DNA of 64,000 nt from Cytophagales bacterium (GTDB lineage: Bacteria; Bacteroidota; Bacteroidia; Cytophagales; Spirosomataceae), in contig JAAFJE010000004.1 of NCBI GenBank assembly GCA_013298025.1, positions 178,528 through 242,527 on the forward strand, written 5' to 3'. Below the pieces are notes generated by a model. It made no database searches. It was not told the origin of the DNA and saw only the letters and a program-made list of their open reading frames with translations. Below are positions 40,671-59,188 of the stretch, in pieces (the stretch's first letter is position 1; each line of letters starts with the position of its first letter). Both the position numbers and the translations under genes were made by a program.

Positions 40671-40829
40671 GTATATAAACGGATTAAAGTTGCGAAGTAA
40701 CATTTGTATGGGTTGTATCAGCACTGGAATTTAGGTGAAATATGTTGTTTGATCAAAAATCTCTTGAAATAAGACGTTTTTCTTTTTACACAAAAGGCAT
40801 AAAGAAGGGCTGCCTTTGCAGACAGCCCA

Positions 40830-41210
40830 AAATAAGTCTATAAGCCGGATTCTGTCAATACTTCTGCGAAGTATCGTCTTATCATTTATCTCGACGCACC
40901 GTCACCGATACGCTCTATCAACCTACCCGCTGACATCGGACGAGCAGCCCTTTTTCAAAACATTGCTGTTTCTCTCGCCAGCCTATTTGGTCTTTCAACA
41001 CATGAGGTTTACCTCTGCCTCGTTTGTCACCAACCGAGCGGTAGGCTCTTACTCTACCTTTTCACCCTTACCTTTGCAGGCGGTAATTTTCTGTGGCACT
41101 GGCTGTCACAAGCTCGTCGCCAAGCTTGTGCCTTCCCGTTAGGAAGCATGTTGCTCTGTGTTGTCCAGACTTTCCTCCCTTGTTGCCAAAGGCGATAAGA
41201 CGACTTATTT
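40830..41210 (-). ncRNA. rnpB: RNase P RNA, class A
   Basis: Reverse strand contains GAGGAAAGTC near the 5' end and ACAGAATCCGGCTTAT at the 3' end; termini pair (AAATAAGTC / GACTTATTT); terminator-like hairpin follows at about 40807-40828. Confidence 0.95.
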
Positions 41211-41269
41211 CTTTGGTAAAGATAGCCGACTTTTTTGGAAAGAGCAAATCCTACTTGTTCCTTGGCTTT

Positions 41270-47759: not shown

Positions 47760-50729
47760 ATGAACAATTTTAAAAAAATCAATAACCTTACCGGTTGGGC
47801 TGTATTTTTGATTTCTTTCGTCGTTTTTGCTGCCACAGTAGAGCGAACAGCCTCTTTTTGGGATTGCGGTGAATTTATAGCCTGTGCTTACAAGCTGCAA
47901 GTTCCTCACCCTCCTGGTGCACCACTATTTTTATTATTGGGAAGAATGTTCTCGTTGTTGGCGGGTGCCGATAAAACACAAGTGGCTTATTGGGTAAATA
48001 TGCTATCGGTGGTTTCGAGTGCTTTTACCATTCTATTTATGCACTGGACAATCGTATTGATTGGTCGTAAAATTTTAAATAAAAGCTTTGAATCTTTGAG
48101 CCTTGCCGAAGCTATCAGCTTGTTGGGGGCTGGGGTTGTTGGGTCCTTGGCTTATGCTTTTACAGATACGTTTTGGTTCTCGGCTGTAGAGGCCGAAGTG
48201 TATGCCATGTCGTCGTTCTTTACGGCATTGGTTGTATGGGCAGCTTTCAAATGGGAGCTTATCGAAGACGAAGCCGCAGCTAACCGTTGGTTGGTTTTTA
48301 TCGCTTATATCGTGGGCTTGTCTATTGGTGTCCACTTGCTAAACTTGGTAACTGTACCTGCGTTGGCGTTATTATATTATTTCAAAAAATACCCTAAACC
48401 AACTTATCTGGGCGGTTTTATTGCTTTAACGGTAGGTTTATTCATCTTGGGTATCATCAACTCTGGTATTATTCCGGGTATTCCATCGATGGCATTTAGC
48501 TTTGAACTAGCCTTTGTCAATGAGCTTGGTATGCCTTATGGTTCGGGAGTTATCGTATTTTTGGTCTTGTTTATTGGACTCTTGGTAGGGGGCGTAGCTT
48601 ATTCTCAAGCTAAAAATAAGGTAGGCTTAAACATATCGCTGTTGGCTTTGTCTTTTGTCTTGATTGGCTATTTGTCTTACAATTTGGCCTTGGTTCGTTC
48701 TACTTACAACACCCCAATCAACGAAAATGACCCGAGCAATATCCTCAACTTTTTAAAGTATTTGCGTCGTGAGCAATACGGCGAACGCTCGTTGTTGTAT
48801 GGCCCTATTTTTACGGCAGAAGTAGAAAGCGTTGACGCTGGCGCCCCTGTCTATAAAATGAAAGATGGCAAATACGTGGTATATGACCACAAGCAAAAAG
48901 TAACCTACAGCAAAAATGGTCAAATGTTGTTGCCTCGTATCTACTCGAATGCACCACAACACGTGGCTCTTTACCGTGAAATGCTAGGCTTGGCAGAAGG
49001 TGAAACGCCTACATTTGGCGACAACCTCCGCTTTATGTTTACGCACCAAATGGGTCACATGTATATGCGTTATTTGCTTTGGAACTTCGTCGGACGAGAA
49101 AGCGATATTCAAGATGCAGGCGTGATAGATTATACACGGAAAGGTGCTTTACCCGAATTGCTCGCCAACAATAAAGCACACAATAATTACTTCTATTTGC
49201 CACTTATCTTGGGTTTACTAGGCTTTTTCTTATTGTATCGTAAAAATGAAAAAGACTTTTTAATTACGATTTTGATGTTTTTGATGACGGGCTTGGCACT
49301 GGTTATTTTCCTTAACTCGCCTCCAACAGAGCCTCGTGAGCGTGATTATATTTATGTGGGTTCGTTCTATTTCTTTGCTATTTGGATTGGCCTAGGCGTA
49401 ATGCAATTGGCCGAATGGTTGTTGAAACTCATCAAAAATCCTGTGTCAACGAGCTATGCCGCCACTGCGGTTTCGTTGGTGATTCCTGTGATTTTGATTC
49501 AACAAAACTGGGACGACCACGACCGCAATCACCGTTATCATCAGGTTGATTTTGCTAAAAATATGCTCAATTCTTGTGCCCCCAACGCTATTTTGTTTAC
49601 GGGTGGCGACAACGATACTTTCCCCTTGTGGTATGTGCAAGAAGTAGAAGGATTCCGTACCGATGTGCGTGTATGTAACCTTTCGTTGTTGGGTACAGAC
49701 TGGTACATCGAGCAAATGAAACGCAAAACGTATGAGTCGGAAGCTTTGCCTATTTCTTTAGATAAAGACCGTTTCTTGGAAGGTATCAACGACCAAATTT
49801 TATTCTACGAAAACCCTAATGTCAAAAATGGCATTAACCTCGAAGAATACATCAAATTGGTGAAAGATGATAACCCTGCTATCAAAGTGCCATTACAAGA
49901 TGGTACAATGATTAATACCTTGCCTTCTGAGAATGTTTTTGTGCCTGTGAATGTAGAAGAAATGAAAAAAGCTACTTTCATACCCGATGCCCTCAAACCA
50001 TATTTGATGGACCAAGTAAGTTGGTCGTTGGGCAAAGGTGGCTTGATGAAACCCGAATTGATTCAGTTGGATATTATTGCCCAAAATGCCAAAAATGGCT
50101 GGAAGCGTCCTATTTATTTCGCTACAACTTTGGCAAGCAGCAGCTACCTCAACATGAAAGAAATGATGCAGCTAGAAGGTTATGCGTATCGTTTGTTGCC
50201 AGTGAAACTGCCAGAAGCCAAAGAAGGTATTGTCAATACCGACATCATGTTTGATAACGTAACGAAGAAAATGTTCTGGAGAGATTTAGACAATCCAAAC
50301 ACGTACTATCATTCTGATTTTTACTTAGAAGTACCAGTGATTACGGCACGTTTGAGCTTCTTGCGTTTGGTGGACCAGTTGGTAAAAGAAGGTAAATTGG
50401 CGAAAGCAAAAGAAGCATTAGATTTTGAAATGAAGGTGATGCCCGACAAAACTATCCCTTACGACCAGCTTAGTGCCAATTTTGTATCGCTTTATTTAGC
50501 GGTAGGCGATAAGAAAAAGGCCTTGGAAATTGCTGATACCATGATGAACCGCAACGATAAAGCATTAACGTACTACCTGCAAGAACGCAGAGGAAGCGAT
50601 TCTCGTGAAATTCAAACGGCCTTGTATGAAATGCAAATCATTGTCAATGGGCTGAAAGAAGCAAAACTTCCCGAAGCAGCCAAGTACGAAGAGATGTTTA
50701 ATCGTCAGTACAATAAAGCTAGTTCATAA
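47760..50729 (+). CDS. DUF2723 (TMEM260-like) membrane glycosyltransferase
   Basis: WDCGEFIA, HPPGAPLF, FWFSAVEAEVY, GDNDTFPLWY. Confidence 0.9.
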   Translation: MNNFKKINNLTGWAVFLISFVVFAATVERTASFWDCGEFIACAYKLQVPHPPGAPLFLLLGRMFSLLAGADKTQVAYWVNMLSVVSSAFTILFMHWTIVLIGRKILNKSFESLSLAEAISLLGAGVVGSLAYAFTDTFWFSAVEAEVYAMSSFFTALVVWAAFKWELIEDEAAANRWLVFIAYIVGLSIGVHLLNLVTVPALALLYYFKKYPKPTYLGGFIALTVGLFILGIINSGIIPGIPSMAFSFELAFVNELGMPYGSGVIVFLVLFIGLLVGGVAYSQAKNKVGLNISLLALSFVLIGYLSYNLALVRSTYNTPINENDPSNILNFLKYLRREQYGERSLLYGPIFTAEVESVDAGAPVYKMKDGKYVVYDHKQKVTYSKNGQMLLPRIYSNAPQHVALYREMLGLAEGETPTFGDNLRFMFTHQMGHMYMRYLLWNFVGRESDIQDAGVIDYTRKGALPELLANNKAHNNYFYLPLILGLLGFFLLYRKNEKDFLITILMFLMTGLALVIFLNSPPTEPRERDYIYVGSFYFFAIWIGLGVMQLAEWLLKLIKNPVSTSYAATAVSLVIPVILIQQNWDDHDRNHRYHQVDFAKNMLNSCAPNAILFTGGDNDTFPLWYVQEVEGFRTDVRVCNLSLLGTDWYIEQMKRKTYESEALPISLDKDRFLEGINDQILFYENPNVKNGINLEEYIKLVKDDNPAIKVPLQDGTMINTLPSENVFVPVNVEEMKKATFIPDALKPYLMDQVSWSLGKGGLMKPELIQLDIIAQNAKNGWKRPIYFATTLASSSYLNMKEMMQLEGYAYRLLPVKLPEAKEGIVNTDIMFDNVTKKMFWRDLDNPNTYYHSDFYLEVPVITARLSFLRLVDQLVKEGKLAKAKEALDFEMKVMPDKTIPYDQLSANFVSLYLAVGDKKKALEIADTMMNRNDKALTYYLQERRGSDSREIQTALYEMQIIVNGLKEAKLPEAAKYEEMFNRQYNKASS

Positions 50730-50748
50730 TTTTACAGTTAATAAATGG

Positions 50749-50778
50749 AAAGGGGATGCAGCGATGCGTCCCTTTTTT
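50749..50778. terminator. bidirectional terminator
   Basis: AAAGGGGATGCA-GCGA-TGCGTCCCTTTTTT. Confidence 0.75.
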
Positions 50779-50779
50779 G

Positions 50780-50986
50780 TTAGCAGTCTAATACACTTTC
50801 GTCGGTAAGAATATGGTTTTGTAAAACCCATTCTTTCAATGCCTTCCGATGCTCATGCCGTACAATTACTTGTACTTTGGTTTGCCCTTCTTTTAAAATC
50901 AAAAAAGCCGTACTCAAAAACTTAGAATAGGTAATATAATAAACGTATTCTGCTCGATAAGGCATATTAAATGCTGTATGATTCAT
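50780..50986 (-). CDS. hypothetical 68-aa protein
   Basis: ATG after an AT-rich leader; ends right at the shared terminator; no recognisable motif. Confidence 0.4.
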   Translation of the reverse strand: MNHTAFNMPYRAEYVYYITYSKFLSTAFLILKEGQTKVQVIVRHEHRKALKEWVLQNHILTDESVLDC

Positions 50987-51384
50987 AAAAACAATAGCGT
51001 ATTTTTTAAAAAAAGGGATGATTGACGAATTTAGCTATTAATTGTTTTTGCTACAATAGTAATAGGTAAAAATACCAGAGATATTTCCTTGAATAGTATC
51101 AAACAAAAACATCCTCAGAAAGGTTATAAAAACGTTTCTGTACAAAAAACTACCGTTTACTTTTTTATCGGCTTCTTTTTTCTAAATTCTGGCGTACTTT
51201 ATACAATTTGGCATGAATATTGACCATTATTAGAAGTAACATATTTTTGTGTCCAAACAAGATACATCAGTATTTATTCTTTTTGTTTGTTTTTTTTGCA
51301 ATTCGTTAGTTTTTTTTGGAAAAAAGCTCAAAAAAAATAATAAAAAACTTGTTTGGCATATTTATTGTAAATAATTTTACAAGC

Positions 51385-51745
51385 AAGAACATATTCCGCC
51401 AAGCGTAGTTCAAACAGATACAACATAGATTCAATTACTATACTATCTTTCACTACTGCTTACAGCGAATACCTTCTTAAAGCTTTATATTACCGAGCAT
51501 CATCAGTTTCTGTCCGCCAAACAGAAATTCAAAATATAAAGGTTGGATTACAAAACTTACTTAGTTGTCAAATAATTTCGATAATAAAACCGCCATTTTA
51601 TTATCTATTTTATCAATAAGTAAACTACAGAGTTCAACAGTAAAGACATTCAAGTTACAACTTGTGGGTTAGGATTACCCAAAAGATAACTACTTAGGCG
51701 GATTGCGTAAAGGCTCGGAGCGTTGCTTCGGGTCTTTATTTATTG
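51385..51745 (+). ncRNA. candidate sRNA A (three CCGCCA motifs at or near hairpin loops)
   Basis: Promoter-like TAATTTTA at 51372-51379, no ATG seen on the + strand, terminator hairpin at 51709-51737 whose three G-U pairs favour the + strand. Confidence 0.5.
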
Positions 51746-51872
51746 ATATACCCAAAAAATTGTCCTCTTTTTTTTTCCTCTATTGCGTCAAAACCTTCCT
51801 TCGTGTAATTCTCAGAAAATTCCGATTCTTGTCTTTGTGTTGTTCTGTATAAAATACGTATGTTTGTACTAT

Positions 51873-52090
51873 CAATTACATCATATTTGTGGCGGCAAAG
51901 AAATGTAAAAGACCACACAATGGTATATATGGCTACCTTGTAGTGCTGTGGCGGCAGCTATGAAGTAACCCTATACGACCAGCCTAAGTAAAACTGAAAA
52001 CAATTAGCCTAAGTAAATTTGTAATCCTACAAACCAAGTAACTTAAACATTACTGCAAACCCTTGGAGTGGCGGCTTCGAGGGTTTTTGC
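51873..52090 (+). ncRNA. candidate sRNA B (three TGGCGG-loop hairpins)
   Basis: Consensus -7 box TATGTTTG at 51859-51866; three hairpins with the identical loop; the last is a terminator (52055-52090); only tiny ORFs (7 aa or less). Confidence 0.6.
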
Positions 52091-52301
52091 TTTATATGCC
52101 CGTCTGATTTTCTTCTTTTTCTCCCCCCCAATAGAAATTTCATTGTATTATTTCAAGATTGTTCAGAATTAACAGGATGGTGCATGATAGACATTTTTAG
52201 AGAATAAAGTTATTTTACAATAAATAGTACATATAATACAAGCATTGTCGTGTATTGCGACAATACGCCACTTTCCTCAAAGCATAATTTACTAGACGTT
52301 C

Positions 52302-53648
52302 ATGGAACACACAATACTCAACAGAAGAGATTTTTTACAACAAGCTACGCTTGCCGCTGCTGGTGTAGCCCTCAGTACCATTCCCGACGTACTAGGAGCA
52401 ACCGCTACCAAACGTAAAGTGGCTATGGTTGGTACAGGTCACAGAGGCACAGGTATGTGGGGTACGCCTGTTGTACACGAGTTTAGTGACGTAATCGAAT
52501 TTGTGGGTTTGTGTGATGCGAACATTGGTAGAGCCGAAACTGCCAAAAAAATGCTGGGCGTTACTTGTGCTGTATATACCGATTTTGAAAAAATGATGCG
52601 TGAAACCAAACCCGATTTACTCATTGTAACAACGGTAGATGCTACGCACGATAAATTTATCATCAAAGGAATGGAAATGGGTGCAGATATTATCACTGAG
52701 AAACCCATGACTACCGATGAAGGCAAATGTCAAGCCATTTTAGATGCTGAAAAAAGAACAGGCAAGAAAGTAACCGTTACGTTCAATTACCGCTATTCGC
52801 CGCATCGTCAAAAAATATACGAATTGTTGCGTGCAGGAGCTATTGGCAAGGTTACGTCGGTCGATTTTCACTGGTATTTAGATACACGCCACGGAGCAGA
52901 TTATTTCCGCCGTTGGCATCGACTCAAAGAAAACTCTGGGTCGCTTTGGGTGCACAAGGCTAGTCACCATTTTGATTTATTGAACTGGTGGCTCGAATCG
53001 GAACCAGCTTCGGTATATGCCCAAGCTGCCCTAGAGCATTATGGTAAAAACGGGACTGTACGAGGCAAAAACTGTCGTACCTGCGACCACAAAGCGACGT
53101 GTCCGTTTTATTGGGACATCACCAAAGACAATCGTTTGGTAAACCTTTACGTCAATAACGAACAACACGACGGCTATTTGAGAGATGGCTGCGTATTTAA
53201 AGAAGACATCAATATTTACGATAAAATGGCGGCAACCATTCAGTATGCCAATGGCGTAAATGTGAGTTATTCGCTTACAACCTATTCACCTTATGAAGGG
53301 TATCGCATTGCCTTCAATGGTACACAAGGAAGACTAGAGGCTTGGATAAAAGAAACAGGTCAAATGACTATTGAGCCTTATGACGAACTGATGCTTGCGA
53401 AAAACTTTGGTGCAGTAGAGTATATTAAAATCCCACAGGCCGAAGGGCATGGCGGCGGCGACGCTCGATTGAGAGATAAAATTTTTAGAAACCCCAATAG
53501 TGCCGATACTTTCCGTCAATCGGCTGGCAGTAGAGATGGTGCTATGGCCATTTTGGTTGGCATTGCAGCCCGTAAAAGTGCCGAAACAGGACAGTCCATT
53601 AAGATTGCCGACCTTACCGATTTGAAGCCTAGAGCTATTAAGGCATAA
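52302..53648 (+). CDS. Gfo/Idh/MocA oxidoreductase with Tat-like signal
   Basis: LNRRDFLQ, MVGTGHRG, TEKPM, HKASHHFD, GHGGGD. Confidence 0.9.
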   Translation: MEHTILNRRDFLQQATLAAAGVALSTIPDVLGATATKRKVAMVGTGHRGTGMWGTPVVHEFSDVIEFVGLCDANIGRAETAKKMLGVTCAVYTDFEKMMRETKPDLLIVTTVDATHDKFIIKGMEMGADIITEKPMTTDEGKCQAILDAEKRTGKKVTVTFNYRYSPHRQKIYELLRAGAIGKVTSVDFHWYLDTRHGADYFRRWHRLKENSGSLWVHKASHHFDLLNWWLESEPASVYAQAALEHYGKNGTVRGKNCRTCDHKATCPFYWDITKDNRLVNLYVNNEQHDGYLRDGCVFKEDINIYDKMAATIQYANGVNVSYSLTTYSPYEGYRIAFNGTQGRLEAWIKETGQMTIEPYDELMLAKNFGAVEYIKIPQAEGHGGGDARLRDKIFRNPNSADTFRQSAGSRDGAMAILVGIAARKSAETGQSIKIADLTDLKPRAIKA

Positions 53649-53684
53649 TAATTTAGCTATTTTCCTTCGACCTCTCATACTCAC

Positions 53685-53716
53685 TATCAATCGGTAGCAT
53701 CAACTGCCGATTGATA
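53685..53716 (+). terminator. hairpin between oxidoreductase and susC
   Basis: TATCAATCGGTAG-N6-CTGCCGATTGATA; no clear U-tract. Confidence 0.45.
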
Positions 53717-53846
53717 CCTCCACGTATAAGCTTTATAATAACACTATGAAAATAAACTTCTTGCAATAGGATTATTGCAGGCTAAAAGTTTTGTGATGTG
53801 TTCAATAATTTTTTTATAATAAATACAACAATTCAATAACTGATTT

Positions 53847-56800
53847 ATGTTTAAATTTCGACAATTGGTGATGCTGTTTTTAAGTATGTTAACTTATTCG
53901 GCATTAGCACAAGATTTCGCCGTAACAGGCAAAGTAACAGATGTTACTTCGGGCGGAATACCAGGTGTGACCGTTCTTTTAAAAGGAACGCAAAAAGGTG
54001 TAACAACCGACGTAAATGGTAATTATAAAATTACCGTTGGAGCGGGGGCAGTGTTGGTGTTTTCTTCGGTTGGTTATGAAAAACAAGAAATTGCAGTAGA
54101 AAACCGTAGTAAAATTGATGTTGTGTTGAGAAATGATGTAAAATCGCTCGACGAAGTGGTAGTGGTTGGTTATGGTACACAGAAAAAAGCCAATGTAACA
54201 GGAGCAATGGCTTCGTTTAACGCCAAAGACCTTGACCAACGCCCTATAGCAAGGGTTGACCAAGCACTTGTAGGACAATTAGCAGGGGTTTCGGTGAAGC
54301 AAACGAGTGGTACACCGGGTAAAGGCTTTAGCGTACAAGTACGTGGCTCGGGGTCGATTTCTGCCAGTAACGAACCCTTGTATGTAATTGATGGTTTTCC
54401 TCTCGAAACATCAGGACAAAATGCCTCGGGTGGGTTTAGTACAGGCAATCCATTAGACAACCTCAATCCCAATGACATCGAAAACATTCAAGTGCTCAAA
54501 GATGCTTCTTCGGCGGCTATCTATGGGTCAAGAGCAGCGAACGGCGTTGTGCTTATCACCACGAAAAAAGGACAAGAAGGCAAAGCAAAAATTAGCTTGA
54601 ATGCCTATACGGGTATCACAAAAGCGACTCGTATGCTCGATATGCTCAGTGCCGAAGAATGGACTGAAAGAGCTAAGGAAATGATTGATGCCCAATGGGT
54701 AGCATCAGGAGCCGGACGTACTGCCGCTCAAACAAACGACCAACGAAGACAAATCTTGGGGCTTTCGGGTACAGCCGTAAATACCTCGTATATGTACGAC
54801 GACCGTTGGTTTCAGGCGGGGCATCCAGGTTTGACTTATATCGACTGGCAAAAAGAAGCTTTTAGAACAGGTGTTGTAAAAAATTATCAGCTTTCTGCTA
54901 GTGGCGGCAATAATTATGTAAAATACTATGTGTCAGGCAATGTACTAGACCAAGACGGTACGGTTTGGAACATGAATTACAAAAATTATACAGCCCGTGC
55001 CAATGTAGAGGTAAAAGCCAACGAAAAGCTCCGTTTTGGCGTAAACCTTGCTCCGTCTTATTCAGAGGCCAACGACCCTGGTGTAGAAGGCAAAGATGCC
55101 ATCATTCACATTGTGGCGAGTATGACACCCGTGCAAGAAGAAGCCGCTGGCGTGTATGCCAATACAGGAGCGTATGGCGTTTATCCTTGGAGTGGTACAC
55201 GTAATAGCCCCATTGCTCAGTTAAAAAATAATATCGGTTTAACCAAAACATTCAGGACGCTATTCTCTACTTTCCTCGATTATTCTATTCTAAAAAATCT
55301 TACGTTTAGAACTTCTTTCAACTTTGATAATGCCGATGCCAGTACACAAAAATATAGTCCAGATTGGGTAAACGGTAGCCAAACGGCTCGCTTAAACTCG
55401 CCAGGAACTTCTACTTCGGGTAGTTATTCAACCTTGAAAAGACAGACTTTGGTTAATGAAAATACGTTATCTTACAATACGACTATCAACAACGACCATG
55501 ATATTTCGGCAGTAGCAGGTTATGCTTATAATTTTACTAAAATCGGAACGTCGTCGTTGGCATCGTCTGGAGGTTATAGTAGCAGTACCATTACCACATT
55601 GAATGCAGCCGTGTTGGCAACAGGTAATACCAACGAAACGCAAAACGTATTATTGTCGTATTTTGGTCGTGTACAGTATGGCTACAAAGGCAAATATTTG
55701 TTATCGGCAAGTGTACGTAGGGATGGTTCTTCTCGTTTTGGTGATAATCAAAAATGGGGACTTTTTCCATCGGCTTCATTGGGCTGGCGTTTGAGCGAAG
55801 AGCCTTTCATGAAAAATATTTCGGCCATCAACGAACTAAAATTGCGTGCAAGCTGGGGTAAAGCTGGTAACTATAACATTGGCGACTACAGCAGTATTTC
55901 TACCTTGGGTTTTGCCAATTATACCTTCGGAGGGGCACAAGCAAGCGGACAAACACCCAACCGCATTGCCAATCCAGACCTTACTTGGGAAAAATCAGAA
56001 ACCATCGACGTAGGTTTCGATATTGGTTTCTTGAAAAATAGATTTACTGCCGCATTTGATTATTACAGAAAAACCAACAAAGATTTGTTGTTGAACGTAC
56101 CTGTACCTTTAGCCACAGGTTTTGCAACGTCTTTAACAAACATTGGCGAAGTACTTAACCAAGGTTGGGAATTTGAGTTGACTTCTCGTAATATCAATAA
56201 CGCCAATGGTTTTCAATGGACAACCTCTGTGAACCTAAGCCACAACGAAAACCAAGTAGTGCATTTGGCTCCTGGAGATGCCTCTATTTACATTCCTTCG
56301 AGTTTCGATATTCCTCATAGTATCTTACAAGTTGGCGAGCCAATGTACGCCTACCACGTAGTAAAAATGATTGGGATTCTTACACAAGCCGATATTGATA
56401 ATAAAGTGGCGATGTATGGCACTCAAACCGTTGGCGACCCTAAGTATTTTGATGCCAACAGCGATGGCAAAATCGATGCCAACGACAGGGTGTATGCAGG
56501 AAAACCTAATCCCGATTTGATTTATGGCGTAACAAATACCTTCAAATATAAGGGCTTCGACCTTACGGTATTGGTACAAGGACAAACCGGTGGCTCGGTT
56601 TATTCGTTGTTCGGTCGTGCTGTTGACCGTACTGGTCAAGGGGTGGCAGATAACGCCTTGGGTATTTATCGTGACCGTTGGCGTTCGGTTGATAATCCGG
56701 GCGATGGTCTTCGTGGAAAAGCGTATTCAACTTTTGGTCGTATCAAAAATACCGATTGGCTTTGGTCGTCTGATTACTGGCGTGTAAGAAATATTACTTT

Positions 56801-57023
56801 GGGGTATAATTTAGGACAAAATATCAACCAAAAATACCTCAAAGGAGCTAGAATTTATGTAACGGCCGAAAACTGGTTTGGAGGTGATAAATACAAAGGT
56901 GGTTGGAATCCAGACGCTATCAATACCAACTTGAGCGGCGATACCTCGTTCCCGCAAGGGGGTGATTATGGTGGTTTGCCTTTGTCTCGTTCAATTATTT
57001 TTGGGGTAAACCTCACTTTCTAG
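53847..57023 (+). CDS. susC: SusC/RagA TonB-linked outer membrane protein
   Basis: DEVVVVGYGTQKK, IQVLKDASSAAIYGSRAANGV, terminal FGVNLTF. Confidence 0.96.
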   Translation: MFKFRQLVMLFLSMLTYSALAQDFAVTGKVTDVTSGGIPGVTVLLKGTQKGVTTDVNGNYKITVGAGAVLVFSSVGYEKQEIAVENRSKIDVVLRNDVKSLDEVVVVGYGTQKKANVTGAMASFNAKDLDQRPIARVDQALVGQLAGVSVKQTSGTPGKGFSVQVRGSGSISASNEPLYVIDGFPLETSGQNASGGFSTGNPLDNLNPNDIENIQVLKDASSAAIYGSRAANGVVLITTKKGQEGKAKISLNAYTGITKATRMLDMLSAEEWTERAKEMIDAQWVASGAGRTAAQTNDQRRQILGLSGTAVNTSYMYDDRWFQAGHPGLTYIDWQKEAFRTGVVKNYQLSASGGNNYVKYYVSGNVLDQDGTVWNMNYKNYTARANVEVKANEKLRFGVNLAPSYSEANDPGVEGKDAIIHIVASMTPVQEEAAGVYANTGAYGVYPWSGTRNSPIAQLKNNIGLTKTFRTLFSTFLDYSILKNLTFRTSFNFDNADASTQKYSPDWVNGSQTARLNSPGTSTSGSYSTLKRQTLVNENTLSYNTTINNDHDISAVAGYAYNFTKIGTSSLASSGGYSSSTITTLNAAVLATGNTNETQNVLLSYFGRVQYGYKGKYLLSASVRRDGSSRFGDNQKWGLFPSASLGWRLSEEPFMKNISAINELKLRASWGKAGNYNIGDYSSISTLGFANYTFGGAQASGQTPNRIANPDLTWEKSETIDVGFDIGFLKNRFTAAFDYYRKTNKDLLLNVPVPLATGFATSLTNIGEVLNQGWEFELTSRNINNANGFQWTTSVNLSHNENQVVHLAPGDASIYIPSSFDIPHSILQVGEPMYAYHVVKMIGILTQADIDNKVAMYGTQTVGDPKYFDANSDGKIDANDRVYAGKPNPDLIYGVTNTFKYKGFDLTVLVQGQTGGSVYSLFGRAVDRTGQGVADNALGIYRDRWRSVDNPGDGLRGKAYSTFGRIKNTDWLWSSDYWRVRNITLGYNLGQNINQKYLKGARIYVTAENWFGGDKYKGGWNPDAINTNLSGDTSFPQGGDYGGLPLSRSIIFGVNLTF

Positions 57024-57054
57024 TATCAATCATTTTATTATTAAGAATAAAGAC

Positions 57055-58551
57055 ATGAAAAAAATATATGTAGTAGCTGCTTTGGCGATGACTGGCTTGT
57101 TGACAAGCTGTGAAAGTCAACTCGACCAAAAGCCTATTTCTAGCTCAACAACGCTTACTTTTTACCAAAGTAACAACGACTTTTTGCAAGGAGTAAATGC
57201 CATTTATGCTTCGTTGGTGACATTTCCCGAACGTCAACTTAATTTATCAGAAACCCGTTCCGATAACTTGTATGCAGTGTCAGACGGTGGCGTGCGTGAC
57301 TGGGAGGGCATCAATAGTTTTCATCAAACTTTGGCATCAAACCCTTATTTATCAGAAGCATGGGCAACCAACTATCAAGGTATTTTCAAAGCCAATACTT
57401 TGTTAGAACAATTGGCAGTAAATGGTTCGGTGATTACAGATGCGGCATTGAAAACACGCTTTGAAGCCGAAGCCAAATTTTTACGTGCTTTGTATTATTT
57501 TGATTTGGTACGTTGGTTTGGTAAAGTGCCATTGATTACAAAAGTAGTTTCTCAAAACGAAGCTACGACGATTCCCCGTAGCTCGGTTGCTGATGTATAT
57601 CAGCAAATTATTGCCGATTTTCAATTTGCCGCTCAAAACCTGCCCGTTTCTTATACTTCTACCAATATTGGTAGAGCTACCAGTTATGCCGCTAAGGCTT
57701 ATTTGGCGTTGGTCTATATGACTCGTTCGGGAGCTACGTATGGCATTGAAGGCCCAGGTTTAGGTGTAAACGAATGGTCGCAGGCACTTACGTTGCTCAA
57801 CGAAATTATCAGTAGTGGTAAATATAGCCTCCAAAATACCTATGCAGGTGTGTTTTCATACAGCAACGAAAACAACGCAGAGGTTCTATTCGATGTGCAG
57901 TATATCAGTGGAGGCTTGGGCTTAGGGGCTTCATTCCCTTGGGTGTTAGCACCTGACACCTATTTTACGGCTAATGGCTTGGCGGCTCAAGGTGGACTTA
58001 CCATTCGCCCTGTTTCCAATGATTTGTTGAATGCTTACGAAACAGGCGATGTGCGTAAAAGCTTCTCTGTTTTATCGGGTTATACAGCCAATGGTGTGCA
58101 AGAAACACGCTCGTTCTTCAAAAAGTATATCGACCTTTCTAAGTATGGTAAAAGCCGTACCGATTGGCCTATCAACTTTATTGCTATGCGTTATGCCGAT
58201 ATTCTTTTGTTGAAAGCCGAATGTATCTTGCGAACCAATAACGGAACATCAACTACAGAAGCACTCGCTTTGGTTAACCAAATTCGTAAAAGGGCTGGAT
58301 TGGCAGATGCTACCACGCTCACTTACGCAAGCCTATTGAACGAAAGACGTAAAGAGTTTGCCGCAGAAGGTTCTCGTTGGCACGATTTGGTACGTTTTGG
58401 GGTAGTGGACCAAGTGATTCCTGCATGGATTGCCCAAGAGGATGTCCAAAAACAAATGAAAGCATTTACGCCCAATTATGTGATTTATCCTATTCCTCAG
58501 TCTGAATTAGATGTGAAAAAAGGATTGTATCAGCAAAATACTGGATACTAG
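57055..58551 (+). CDS. susD: RagB/SusD lipoprotein
   Basis: Lipobox LTSC, EAKFLRALYYFDLVR, ERRKEFAAEGSRWHDLVR. Confidence 0.95.
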   Translation: MKKIYVVAALAMTGLLTSCESQLDQKPISSSTTLTFYQSNNDFLQGVNAIYASLVTFPERQLNLSETRSDNLYAVSDGGVRDWEGINSFHQTLASNPYLSEAWATNYQGIFKANTLLEQLAVNGSVITDAALKTRFEAEAKFLRALYYFDLVRWFGKVPLITKVVSQNEATTIPRSSVADVYQQIIADFQFAAQNLPVSYTSTNIGRATSYAAKAYLALVYMTRSGATYGIEGPGLGVNEWSQALTLLNEIISSGKYSLQNTYAGVFSYSNENNAEVLFDVQYISGGLGLGASFPWVLAPDTYFTANGLAAQGGLTIRPVSNDLLNAYETGDVRKSFSVLSGYTANGVQETRSFFKKYIDLSKYGKSRTDWPINFIAMRYADILLLKAECILRTNNGTSTTEALALVNQIRKRAGLADATTLTYASLLNERRKEFAAEGSRWHDLVRFGVVDQVIPAWIAQEDVQKQMKAFTPNYVIYPIPQSELDVKKGLYQQNTGY

Positions 58552-58585
58552 AAAGGTCTCTTGGGTGAGATAAGTTTACAAAGTT

Positions 58586-58615
58586 TGGCGTGCTACACAA
58601 GCACGCCATTTTTTT
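58586..58615 (+). terminator. intrinsic terminator
   Basis: TGGCGTGCT-ACACA-AGCACGCCA followed by a T-run. Confidence 0.8.
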
Positions 58616-58723
58616 ATGGGGGAATAGCCAAGAATGACGCTACAATCATTTTTTATTGTATATTTGAGTACAAATAATTGTTATGACAAATAGATACATT
58701 AGCACGTTGTAATACTATACTCC

Positions 58724-59170
58724 ATGACCACCAACCCTAACGACACAAGAGCGTATTTTTTTAAAATAGATACAACCATTAAAAAAATACGGCAAATCCT
58801 ACAAAAAAAATTAGATGCCGCCGGACTCGACATTACCGTTGACCAATGGGTGCTACTCGACCATGTGTTTAGGTTTCAAGAAACAGGTATTAGCCAAAAT
58901 GAATTGGCTGAAATGACCGTTAAAGACGCTCCAACGGTTACTCGAATTATCGACTTGCTTGTAAAAAAAGGACTTGCCCTAAGAACAATGGCAGAAAACG
59001 ACCGTCGCCGTTTTATTATTCATCTGACCGACATGGGTATTGAAAAATACCAAGAGGCGTATCCGATTGTAGTTGAAGTAAGAAGAAAAGGCTGGGGGAA
59101 TTTATCGGAAGAAGATTACAAAGTTTTCGTTAGAATTTTGGATTCGATTTACGTCAATATCAATACATAA
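58724..59170 (+). CDS. MarR family transcriptional regulator
   Basis: ITVDQWVLL, SQNELAE...KDAPTVTRIIDLL..KG, DRRRF; TATATTTG promoter box at 58659-58666. Confidence 0.92.
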   Translation: MTTNPNDTRAYFFKIDTTIKKIRQILQKKLDAAGLDITVDQWVLLDHVFRFQETGISQNELAEMTVKDAPTVTRIIDLLVKKGLALRTMAENDRRRFIIHLTDMGIEKYQEAYPIVVEVRRKGWGNLSEEDYKVFVRILDSIYVNINT

Positions 59171-59188
59171 GCTTATCGACTATTCATT

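What the first reader, a model, noticed from the sequence alone, without database searches (positions are those of the whole stretch)
51385..52090. Tandem, mutually complementary RNA pair: possible undescribed RNA-RNA sponge or switch system
Seen: unit A has 3 CCGCCA motifs and unit B has 3 complementary TGGCGG loops. They also share longer complementary modules. A 51545-51564 (GGATTACAAAACTTACTTAG) pairs with B 52009-52027 (CTAAGTAAATTTGTAATCC) at 18 positions. A second copy in A (AAGTTAC 51652-51658, TAGGATTAC 51670-51678, TACTTAGGC 51691-51699) pairs collinearly with B (GTAACTT 52038-52044, GTAATCCTA 52021-52029, GCCTAAGTA 52007-52015 and 51982-51990). The units do not overlap, and each appears to have its own promoter and terminator on the same strand. 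Inference: A titrates B through multi-loop kissing followed by duplex formation, or both compete for a shared target. Alternatives: two inverted paralogs of one motif-repeat RNA, or inverted DNA protein-binding sites. No toxin ORF is evident, so it is not a standard type I TA.
Basis: partly seen in the sequence, partly recalled or inferred. Interest (0 to 1): 0.82.

Follow-up and report, generated by a model that had tools for sequence, protein, structure and literature searches.

The report
Two complementary small RNAs beside PUL
Two neighbouring, separately transcribed and strongly conserved non-coding RNAs of a freshwater Flectobacillus-like bacterium carry matching sequence motifs, so they could bind and control each other, but that pairing has not been shown and the pair is known from one species-level lineage only.

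Summary
Every motif is at the stated coordinates, and the complementarity exceeds chance: strongly for the three CCGCCA / three UGGCGG hexamers, about 1% for the longer modules.

Both units are real + strand RNAs. Each has a strand-specific intrinsic terminator and a Bacteroidetes-type -7 box. Both assemble as separate contigs in ten metatranscriptomes. Adapter orientation, calibrated on RNase P RNA, puts B on the + strand.

Against the only homologue available (L082), A is 97.2% and B 98.6% identical. Third codon positions of the adjacent genes are 69-88% identical and flanking non-coding DNA 72-92%. Both RNAs are therefore under strong purifying selection.

A and B form the left end of an 8-kb block (A, B, Gfo/Idh/MocA, SusC, SusD, MarR). 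This block lies in different genomic contexts in two strains. Sister species have the same PUL but lack A and B.

There is no Rfam match, no conserved toxin ORF and no global inverted paralogy.

The sponge/switch reading is plausible. Two nested duplexes are predicted, two substitutions keep pairing as G-U, and A-only and B-only samples exist. It remains unproven, because no diverged homologues could be fetched and covariation is untested.

The parts
51156..59176 (+). 8.0-kb conserved block: sRNA A, sRNA B, Gfo/Idh/MocA oxidoreductase, SusC-like, SusD-like, MarR. It lies in different left and right contexts in the window and in L082.
   Evidence: blastn of L082 against the window gives one HSP, L082 4861-12877 = window 51156-59176, with both flanks unrelated. 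The MarR ORF is at 58724-59170.
51242..51249 (+). Distal -7 box TATTTTTG, a candidate promoter for a 5'-extended form of A (TSS about 51255-51262).
   Evidence: Motif scan. RNA contigs of two strains start at 51262 and at the equivalent of 51260. The box is not conserved in L082. Region 51255-51384 is only 90.7% identical to L082.
51352..51379 (+). Proximal promoter-like elements: TTTG at 51352-51355 and the 7-of-8 box TAATTTTA at 51372-51379.
   Evidence: Relaxed motif scan. The elements are conserved in L082. Inference only; no RNA 5' end maps here.
51385..51745 (+). sRNA A core, about 360 nt and highly structured.
   Evidence: MFE -84.7 kcal/mol, z = -5.6. z is -5.1 on the + strand and -1.9 on the - strand. 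RNA contigs cover 51262-51721, 51280-51893, 51404-51753, 51413-51645 and 51548-51753. Identity to L082 is 97.2%. Only 4 of 16 substitutions fall in predicted helices (P = 0.012), and 3 of those 4 are G-U compatible.
51395..51400 (+). 5' strand of A's closing helix (UCCGCC), which contains CCGCCA number 1. It pairs with GGCGGA at 51697-51702.
   Evidence: Centroid structure. P(unpaired) = 0.00.
51505..51529 (+). Hairpin of 9 bp that presents CCGCCA number 2 (51514-51519) in a 7-nt loop.
   Evidence: P(all six nucleotides unpaired) = 0.91-0.98.
51541..51563 (+). A module GUUGGAUUACAAAACUUACUUAG, complementary to B 52010-52035.
   Evidence: Cofold gives 21 intermolecular pairs. Local alignment. 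The L082 change 51553 A>G keeps the pair with U52019 as G-U.
51557..51623 (+). Long hairpin that presents CCGCCA number 3 (51590-51595) in a 6-nt loop.
   Evidence: (I3, I8). P(unpaired) = 1.00. Strain substitutions 51572 A>G, 51584 A>G and 51605 C>T each turn a Watson-Crick pair into G-U on the + strand.
51665..51681 (+). Hairpin UGGGU/ACCCA with loop UAGGAUU. The loop is complementary to the loop region of the B hairpin at 52018-52033.
51691..51705 (+). A module UACUUAGGCGGAUUG, complementary to B 51976-51990. It overlaps the 3' strand of A's closing helix.
   Evidence: Cofold gives 14 pairs. Inverted repeat I14. The L082 change 51976 C>T keeps the pair with G51705 as G-U.
51707..51739 (+). 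Intrinsic terminator of A: a 15-bp stem with four G-U pairs, followed by a U-tract.
   Evidence: Folds to -19.6 kcal/mol on the + strand and -4.4 on the - strand. RNA contigs end at 51721-51753.
51834..51866 (+). Canonical Bacteroidetes-type promoter of B: TTTG, 21 nt, then TATGTTTG.
   Evidence: Identical in L082.
51872..52090 (+). sRNA B, about 200-220 nt and weakly structured apart from three short hairpins.
   Evidence: RNA contigs start at 51882-51898 in seven runs and run to 52004-52073. Adapter orientation in X8, X12, X28 and X29 is opposite to that on RNase P RNA, which lies on the - strand. Identity to L082 is 98.6%. Fold z = -1.0.
51886..51899 (+). B hairpin 1 with UGGCGG (51890-51895) at its tip. 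Abundant RNA fragment 5' ends map inside it at 51889-51898.
   Evidence: Adapter junctions.
51945..51955 (+). B hairpin 2, GCUG-UGGCGG-CAGC.
   Evidence: (family D5).
51976..51990 (+). B module containing the first GCCUAAGUA. It pairs with A 51691-51705.
52007..52044 (+). B module GCCUAAGUAAAUUUGUAAUCCUA...GUAACUU. It pairs with A 51541-51563 and matches A 51652-51699 in collinear antiparallel order. Recurrent RNA 3' ends at 52004 and 52031 bracket it.
   Evidence: Adapter junctions at 52004 (X12, X29) and 52031 (X28).
52057..52086 (+). Intrinsic terminator of B, whose loop is UGGCGG number 3 (52069-52074).
   Evidence: Folds to -18.4 kcal/mol on the + strand and -8.7 on the - strand.

Best explanation
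A (about 51385-51745, with a possible 5' extension to about 51256) and B (about 51872-52090) are two independently transcribed, Rho-independently terminated, non-coding + strand RNAs. They form the left end of a PUL island.

Shown:
- Both are expressed in nature.
- Both are under strong purifying selection.
- They carry above-chance, multi-site complementarity.

Inferred:
- The two RNAs pair with each other. Contact would start between the exposed CCGCCA loops of A (51514, 51590) and the UGGCGG hairpin tips of B, or its UGGCGG-containing 5' end.
- B's poorly structured centre (51976-52035) would then invade two helices of A: the base of the long hairpin at 51541-51563, and the closing helix at 51691-705.
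- The result would be that one RNA titrates or refolds the other, as an sRNA / anti-sRNA (sponge or switch) pair. This may be coupled to cleavage.
- Which of the two is the regulator, and what the final target is, remain unknown. The adjacent PUL is a candidate by linkage only.
For: Strand and transcription units:
- Both terminators are strand-specific.
- The only canonical -7 boxes lie on the + strand, in front of each unit.
- The Read-2 adapter abuts B's left end in X8, X12 and X29. The Read-1-side adapter follows B's right end in X12, X28 and X29. In X8 and X13 the Read-1 adapter abuts the left end of the - strand RNase P RNA.

Expression:
- A and B form discrete contigs in 10 RNA runs. The PUL genes are near zero and neighbouring mRNAs reach depth 2-8.
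- B reaches depth 204 with no A in X28. A reaches 22.7 with no B in X13. This fits separate regulation.

Selection:
- A is 97.2% and B 98.6% identical to L082. Third codon positions are 69-88% identical and flanking non-coding DNA 72-92%. Fisher P is about 1e-11 against Gfo third positions.

Complementarity:
- The two long duplexes are nested and collinear.
- The two substitutions that fall inside them (51553 A>G, 51976 C>T) both keep pairing as G-U.
- A's loops 2 and 3 are fully exposed.

Other points:
- Recurrent natural ends of B at 52004 and 52031 bracket the A-complementary module.
- A and B stay together, and stay with the PUL, in two different genomic contexts.
- No ORF is conserved and no Rfam family matches.
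Against: - No direct evidence of an A-B complex exists.
- No covariation test was possible. All relatives are 94% or more identical over the locus, and only 13 substitutions separate the window from L082 in A and B.
- The whole length of both RNAs is conserved, not the complementary modules in particular.
- A's long modules are fully paired in A alone, and CCGCCA number 1 is buried.
- The thermodynamic model closes B's loops as GGCG tetraloops with a U-G pair.
- The best single 30-nt duplex is only at the edge of background, and one of 60 shuffles came close to the cofold gain.
- A contig in X5 and X7 that matches only A's 3' end has a different hairpin in place of the UAGGAUU loop. At least that module is therefore not universal.
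- A-only and B-only samples could also mean that the two RNAs rarely meet.
Confidence: 0.45

Rival explanations
1. A and B are two ordinary, independent trans-acting sRNAs. Each acts on mRNAs elsewhere in the genome, for example SusC-like transporters, as FopS and GibS do in Bacteroides. Their mutual complementarity would then be incidental, or would exist only because one resembles the other's mRNA targets.
For: - Each has its own promoter and terminator and is expressed independently.
- B has a long unstructured A-rich centre with repeated AAGUAA / GCCUAAGUA, which looks like a seed region.
- PUL-linked sRNAs that repress SusC translation are established in the phylum (PMC11697453).
- The best A:B duplex is only marginally better than background.
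Against: - Three identical hexamers at hairpin tips in B face three exact complements in the adjacent RNA, which is very unlikely by chance.
- The two extended duplexes are nested.
- No convincing target was found in the PUL leaders or in any of 38 start regions of the window. A 64-kb search has little power, however.
Confidence: 0.25
2. A, the spacer and B belong to one read-through transcript of about 700-840 nt, a long structured non-coding RNA or an extended leader of the PUL. The complementary modules would then be long-range intramolecular helices, and the separate species would be processing products.
For: - The same 41 A-B pairs form in the MFE of a single 51385-52095 transcript, at -167.8 against -144.8 kcal/mol for the separate parts.
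- One RNA contig (X13) runs from A through its terminator to 51893.
- The spacer is 96.0% conserved.
- No canonical -7 box lies between B and the Gfo start codon.
Against: - A is followed by a strong terminator (-19.6 kcal/mol plus a U-tract).
- B has a perfect, conserved TTTG-N21-TAnnTTTG promoter.
- B-only contigs appear in five runs and A-only contigs in three.
- PUL genes are not covered where B is abundant.
- The PUL keeps its own conserved leader (52128-52226) in sister species that lack A and B.
Confidence: 0.1
3. One or both RNAs are protein sponges or protein-bound scaffolds. The repeated identical loop motifs would be binding sites for an RNA-binding protein rather than RNA-RNA contact points.
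For: Several hairpins present the same motif, which is the architecture of CsrB/RsmZ-type sponges (my own knowledge). Uniform conservation along the full length fits a structured RNP.
Against: - One protein would not be expected to recognise both a motif and its exact complement.
- The motif is not the A(N)GGA of the Csr/Rsm system.
- No candidate protein gene lies in the block.
- This idea does not explain the extended modules.
Confidence: 0.1
4. The repeats act at the DNA level. They would be protein-binding sites, or remnants of a mobile element's inverted repeats, that happen to lie in a transcribed spacer. A variant of this idea is that A is read from the - strand, so that the two units are inverted paralogs.
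For: - The hexamers are arranged roughly symmetrically: spacings are 118 and 76 in A, and 120 and 59 in B.
- The block has moved between genomic contexts.
Against: - Terminators fold only on the + strand and there is no - strand promoter box.
- Stem substitutions give G-U on the + strand only.
- rc(A) and B align only over one 23-nt module.
- There are no further copies in the window, in 95 loci, or in plasmid and phage collections.
- There are no terminal repeats at the block ends.
- Conservation covers the full RNAs, not just the repeats.
Confidence: 0.05

Closest known systems
sRNA / sponge (anti-sRNA) pairs such as GcvB-SroC, ChiX-chb spacer, RybB/RyhB-3'ETS(leuZ), RoxS-RosA and SprX-SprY (from my own knowledge)
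   Same: Two separately made RNAs have extended, imperfect complementarity. One can titrate or destabilise the other. Expression is independent, so the ratio can vary.
   Different: - Here the partners are adjacent, on the same strand, and both are stand-alone genes.
- Contact could use three repeated GC-rich hexamers as well as two long duplexes.
- The phylum lacks Hfq and ProQ.
- No interaction has been shown.
- There is no sequence homology to any of these RNAs.
Kissing-loop antisense control RNAs of plasmids: ColE1 RNA I/RNA II, R1 CopA/CopT, and IncB/IncI RNAI with a G-rich loop hexamer (from my own knowledge; a paper search for the hexamer found nothing)
   Same: Several stem-loops have loops complementary to loops of the partner. 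Loop-loop nucleation is followed by formation of a longer duplex.
   Different: - Those pairs are cis-encoded on opposite strands of the same DNA and are fully complementary.
- A and B do not overlap, are on the same strand, and match only in modules.
- They are chromosomal and unrelated to replication control.
- No plasmid match was found.
Bacteroides PUL-linked sRNAs GibS and the FopS family (PMC11697453, read; Rfam RF04319)
   Same: They occur in the same phylum. They use sigma-A type TAnnTTTG promoters and intrinsic terminators, have a single-stranded seed region, and are functionally linked to PULs and SusC-like genes.
   Different: - FopS RNAs are short (a 5' seed plus a terminator), multicopy, and act on susC start regions.
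- A and B have no Rfam similarity. The only FopS hit is E = 3.1, outside A and B.
- A is a 360-nt multi-helix RNA.
- No susC pairing was found here.
- No sponge is described for FopS.
Staphylococcus aureus RNAIII and Rsa RNAs with repeated C-rich loops (from my own knowledge)
   Same: The same short C-rich motif is displayed in several hairpin loops of one RNA and kisses G-rich partners.
   Different: The partners there are Shine-Dalgarno regions of mRNAs. Here the G-rich complement is repeated in a neighbouring non-coding RNA, and Bacteroidota make little use of Shine-Dalgarno pairing.

Membership tests
sRNA / sponge (anti-sRNA) pair | Both partners are transcribed as separate RNAs. | tested here: met
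   Separate RNA contigs appear in 10 metatranscriptomes, with A-only and B-only samples. Each unit has its own -7 box and terminator.
sRNA / sponge (anti-sRNA) pair | Complementarity between the partners is beyond chance. | tested here: met
   The hexamer result is strong and the long modules stand at about the 1% level. The single best duplex is marginal.
sRNA / sponge (anti-sRNA) pair | The pairing sites are co-conserved or co-vary across genomes. | tested here: inconclusive
   All motifs are intact in every strain. Two substitutions inside the duplexes remain G-U compatible. Divergence is too low for a real test, and no distant homologue was obtained.
sRNA / sponge (anti-sRNA) pair | There is a physical interaction, and one RNA affects the other's level or activity. 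| not testable with these tools
   This needs EMSA, proximity ligation and deletion mutants.
Type I toxin-antitoxin | A small conserved toxin ORF, usually hydrophobic, is controlled by an antisense RNA. | tested here: not met
   The only hydrophobic ORF (51249-51374, 41 aa) arises from T and A runs and is not kept in L082. No other ORF shows coding-type conservation.
cis-antisense kissing-loop control RNAs (RNA I/II, CopA/CopT) | The partners are transcribed from opposite strands of the same DNA and are fully complementary. | tested here: not met
   Both units are on the + strand and do not overlap. rc(A) aligns to B only over 23 nt.
Any Rfam 15 family, including 6S, tmRNA, SRP and Bacteroides BTnc/FopS models | A covariance-model score at the family's gathering threshold. 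| tested here: not met
   The only window hit is RNase P at 40825-41211. Within 50700-52350 the best E-values are 0.16-10 and none overlaps A or B convincingly. ARAGORN finds no tRNA or tmRNA.
Csr/Rsm-type protein sponge | Many A(N)GGA motifs in hairpin loops, and a CsrA/RsmA partner. | tested here: not met
   The repeated loop motifs are UGGCGG and CCGCCA. No CsrA-like gene is in the block.

The most novel reading that the evidence does not exclude
A and B would be the first sRNA / anti-sRNA system described in Bacteroidota. It would be a self-contained two-RNA toggle that recognises itself through three identical GC-rich loop hexamers. It would then zip up through two nested duplexes, which refolds a 360-nt structured RNA. 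It would travel as a cassette with a polysaccharide-utilisation island whose expression it gates.
Probability: 0.3. Interest if true: 0.72.

Novelty: new variant of a known kind. Interest (0 to 1): 0.55.

Why it matters
Post-transcriptional control in Bacteroidota is poorly understood. The phylum has no Hfq or ProQ, few sRNAs are characterised, and no RNA sponge is described.

A conserved, expressed pair of neighbouring RNAs built to pair with each other would be a compact natural model for three things: RNA-RNA recognition by repeated kissing loops in trans, sRNA titration in this phylum, and regulatory RNAs that move together with a glycan-utilisation island.

The organism is common in freshwater and biofilm metagenomes, and both RNAs are readily seen in metatranscriptomes. 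The hypothesis can therefore be tested directly once an isolate is in hand.

If the pairing is not real, the finding reduces to two new lineage-restricted sRNAs of unknown function. That would be useful but ordinary.

Tried and rejected
**Synteny search**
- The upstream TMEM260-like gene was used to fetch 80 loci from genome contigs. None contains A or B.

**Pattern and similarity searches**
- One metagenome scan used A's conserved 3' core in the variant seen in X5 and X7.
- A viral contigs pattern scan, and plasmid and phage blastn searches, found nothing.

**Protein-guided retrieval**
- Gfo homologues gave L082 (98% aa) and then nothing closer than 85%. Sister-species loci L083-L085, L091, L094 and L095 have no A or B.
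- For the TMEM260-like protein there is nothing between its own cluster and 86% identity.

**Readings rejected**
- Spirosoma CCGCCA 'hairpins' (L051, L053) lie inside a coding gene.
- Global inverted paralogy of A and B.
- Type I toxin-antitoxin.
- 6S, tmRNA or any other known RNA family.
- B as merely the leader of the PUL. The PUL's own leader is conserved in species without B, and the PUL is silent where B is abundant.

**Target search**
- Searches in the PUL leaders and in all start regions of the window gave nothing convincing.
- An 8-bp match of B to the Gfo 5' UTR, seen by eye, is not conserved in L082.

**Other**
- An unrestricted RNAduplex run was uninformative, because it allows very long loops.
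- Paper searches for the loop motifs and for Bacteroidetes sponges found nothing.
Full report
**Where the finding lies**

The window comes from a Flectobacillus-like member of the Spirosomataceae (Bacteroidota). Its TMEM260-like glycosyltransferase is 84-86% identical to those of Flectobacillus species.

The finding sits in a 1572-nt spacer. On the left is that gene (47760-50729). On the right is a polysaccharide-utilisation locus made of a Gfo/Idh/MocA oxidoreductase, a SusC-like and a SusD-like gene.

**Checking the observation**

CCGCCA lies at 51396, 51514 and 51590. TGGCGG lies at 51890, 51949 and 52069. The longer modules are also present with the stated complements.

The hexamer pattern is far beyond chance. 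From their frequency in the window, three or more copies are expected with P = 2.8e-4 in B and 9.5e-5 in A.

The longer modules are unusual at about the 1% level:
- A and B share 11 complementary 8-mers, against 2.2 +/- 1.9 in shuffles.
- Only 15 of 3116 real windows of the same size reach 11.
- The best rc(A)/B local alignment is reached by 1 of 300 shuffles.
- Cofolding gains -18.6 kcal/mol, against -7.0 +/- 3.3 for shuffled B. None of 60 shuffles reaches it, though one comes to -17.6.

A stricter test with 30-nt windows shows that the single best duplex (-21.5) only just beats the best of 35 background regions (-21.1).

- The first CCGCCA is not a loop. It pairs with GGCGG at 51697-51701 to close the A structure.
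- RNA contigs of A begin at 51260-51262 in two strains, upstream of 51385.

**Are they RNAs, and on which strand?**

Both terminators fold well only on the + strand. They give -19.6 and -18.4 kcal/mol there, against -4.4 and -8.7 on the - strand.

The spacer holds three TAnnTTTG boxes, all on the + strand. One lies in front of A (51242-49). One lies in front of B (51859-66, with TTTG 21 nt upstream). The third is inside B. The - strand has none.

In public metatranscriptomes, A and B assemble as discrete contigs:
- A: 51262-51721, 51280-51893, 51404-51753, 51413-51645 and 51548-51753.
- B: starts at 51882-51898 and ends at 52004-52073.

The PUL genes are not covered, and neighbouring mRNAs reach depth 2-8 where A and B reach about 20.

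Adapter remnants give a strand call for B. The Read-2 adapter abuts B's left end in X8, X12 and X29. The Read-1-side adapter follows B's right end in X12, X28 and X29. In X8 and X13 the Read-1 adapter abuts the left end of RNase P RNA, whose gene lies on the - strand. B is therefore on the + strand.

For A there is no adapter evidence. However, three strain substitutions in its long hairpin (51572 A>G, 51584 A>G, 51605 C>T) each turn a Watson-Crick pair into G-U. That conversion works only on the + strand.

A folds much better than shuffles (z = -5.6). Only 4 of 16 strain substitutions fall in its predicted helices (P = 0.012), and 3 of those 4 are pairing-compatible. B is largely unstructured apart from three short hairpins.

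**Conservation and context**

Only one homologue could be fetched as sequence: L082, from an NCBI metagenome assembly. It shares one 8.0-kb block with the window, from 51156 to 59176. The block contains A, B, Gfo, SusC, SusD and a MarR gene. Both flanks are unrelated, so the block lies in different genomic places in the two strains. No terminal repeats mark its ends.

Identity between the window and L082 within the block:

| Segment | Identity |
|---|---|
| A core | 97.2% |
| B | 98.6% |
| Spacer between A and B | 96.0% |
| Third codon positions, four genes | 69-88% |
| PUL leader | 91.9% |
| Left flank | 85.9% |
| Spacer after SusD | 72.0% |

The difference from Gfo third positions has P of about 1e-11 for each RNA. 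Both RNAs are therefore under purifying selection as strong as that on first and second codon positions.

The stretch 51255-51384 is only 90.7% identical.

Flectobacillus rivi and F. roseus carry the homologous PUL. Their upstream leader of about 100 nt is 79-80% identical to 52128-52226. They have no A or B. The cassette is an insertion specific to this lineage. In both contexts seen, it stays joined to the PUL.

**What it is not**

- No Rfam family reaches threshold, and there is no tRNA or tmRNA.
- No ORF is conserved. The one hydrophobic 41-codon ORF comes from T and A runs and is lost in L082.
- rc(A) and B align only over one 23-nt module, so they are not inverted paralogs.
- There are no further copies in the window, in 95 fetched loci, in plasmids or in phages.

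**How it may work**

The predicted A-B complex has two nested duplexes:
- A 51541-51563 pairs with B 52010-52035, giving 21 pairs.
- A 51691-51705 pairs with B 51976-51990, giving 14 pairs.

In A alone, both sites are inside helices: the base of the long hairpin and the closing helix. Pairing would therefore unfold A.

Possible entry points are A's two fully exposed CCGCCA loops (P unpaired 0.91-1.00). They could meet B's three UGGCGG hairpin tips, or B's 5' end. Abundant B fragments begin at 51889-51898, inside the first UGGCGG hairpin.

The two substitutions that fall inside the duplexes (51553 A>G, 51976 C>T) both keep pairing as G-U.

Recurrent natural 3' ends of B at 52004 (two runs) and 52031 bracket the A-complementary module. 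This would fit duplex-dependent cleavage, but that link is speculation.

Expression is uncoupled across samples:
- B has depth 204 with no A in X28.
- A has depth 22.7 with no B in X13.
- Three runs are A-only, five are B-only, and two have both.

This pattern fits separate promoters and is compatible with mutual titration. However, contig absence is weak evidence.

**Limits**

- No covariation test was possible. The only relatives are 94% or more identical over the locus, and intermediate relatives do not exist in the protein collection.
- Contigs in two metagenomes match only A's 3' end (51686-51721). Their terminator stem differs in a compensatory way, and a different hairpin replaces the UAGGAUU loop. 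They may be paralogs or distant homologues, but they could not be fetched.
- No target in the PUL or elsewhere in the window was convincing.
- The same helices would also form within a read-through transcript. B's own conserved promoter, A's strong terminator and the single-RNA samples argue against that as the main form.

**Verdict**

- It is well supported that these are two real, conserved + strand non-coding RNAs not found in Rfam.
- It remains plausible but unproven that they regulate each other by pairing. I put this at about 0.45.
- The nearest known kinds are sRNA-sponge pairs and kissing-loop antisense systems. In the same phylum, the nearest are the PUL-linked FopS and GibS sRNAs (PMC11697453).
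- This case differs by being a same-strand tandem pair with repeated complementary loop hexamers, linked to a mobile PUL block.

Noticed in passing
window 40825-41211 (-): A bacterial RNase P RNA class A gene (Rfam 251.7 bits). It is very abundant in the same metatranscriptomes, and I used it to calibrate library strandedness.
   Followed up: partly
window 51156-59176; L082 4861-12877: The 8-kb block (A, B, Gfo, SusC, SusD, MarR) lies in different left and right contexts in two strains of about 90% block identity. No terminal repeats or integrase were seen. SusC and SusD third codon positions (69-73% identical) are far more diverged than those of Gfo and MarR (83-88%), which suggests mosaic recombination within the block.
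   Followed up: partly
window 52242-52266: A perfect palindrome ATTGTCG-N7-CGACAAT lies 36 nt upstream of the Gfo start codon and is conserved in L082. It is a candidate operator, perhaps for the MarR at the end of the block, or a 5' UTR hairpin. It is absent from the sister-species leaders.
   Followed up: no
window 52128-52226; L091 4810-4897, L094 3802-3899, L095 3810-3897: A leader element of about 100 nt upstream of the PUL is 79-80% identical between this lineage and Flectobacillus rivi and F. roseus. It includes CAGGATGGNGCATGAT and GTTATTTTACAATAAATA. It has no canonical -7 box and its function is unknown.
   Followed up: no
window 51686-51721 (also 51680-51749), matched by other contigs in metagenomes X5 and X7: Separate contigs, at depth similar to the main strain, match only A's 3' end. 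Their terminator stem has changed in a compensatory way, and a GGATAT..ATATCC hairpin replaces the UAGGAUU hairpin. They may be a paralogous or distantly related A-like RNA. The sequence could not be fetched.
   Followed up: partly
window 51889-51898, 52004, 52031: Adapter-joined contig ends recur at these positions of B in independent RNA runs (X8, X12, X28, X29). This implies discrete B sub-species of about 105-140 nt, with ends inside the first UGGCGG hairpin and on both sides of the A-complementary module.
   Followed up: partly
window 50780-50986 (-); L092 9019-9225, L093 5042-5248: An orphan 68-codon ORF lies directly downstream of the TMEM260-like gene and is called as a gene in related contigs. 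It has no Pfam match. The strain junction lies at 51059-51156, just beyond it.
   Followed up: no
L082 2733-4395: In the related strain, the genes upstream of A are an AAA_15/AAA_21 ATPase (399 aa) overlapping a 160-aa protein with no Pfam hit. This arrangement is reminiscent of two-gene defence modules. It is absent from the window.
   Followed up: no
L091 6354-6876; L094 5357-5795; L095 5354-5852: In the sister species, the Gfo-SusC spacer is 440-520 nt, against 198 nt in the window. It is full of GCCTAA / TTAGGC / GCCTAG repeats and hairpins. This may be another non-coding element, and the repeat resembles the GCCUAAGUA module of B.
   Followed up: no
window 51280-51347: A long U-run and A-run inverted repeat (19 nt, 84% complementary) lies in the 5' extension of A. 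In addition, 51298-51307 (GCAAUUCGUU) can pair with 51697-51706 as an alternative to A's closing helix.
   Followed up: partly
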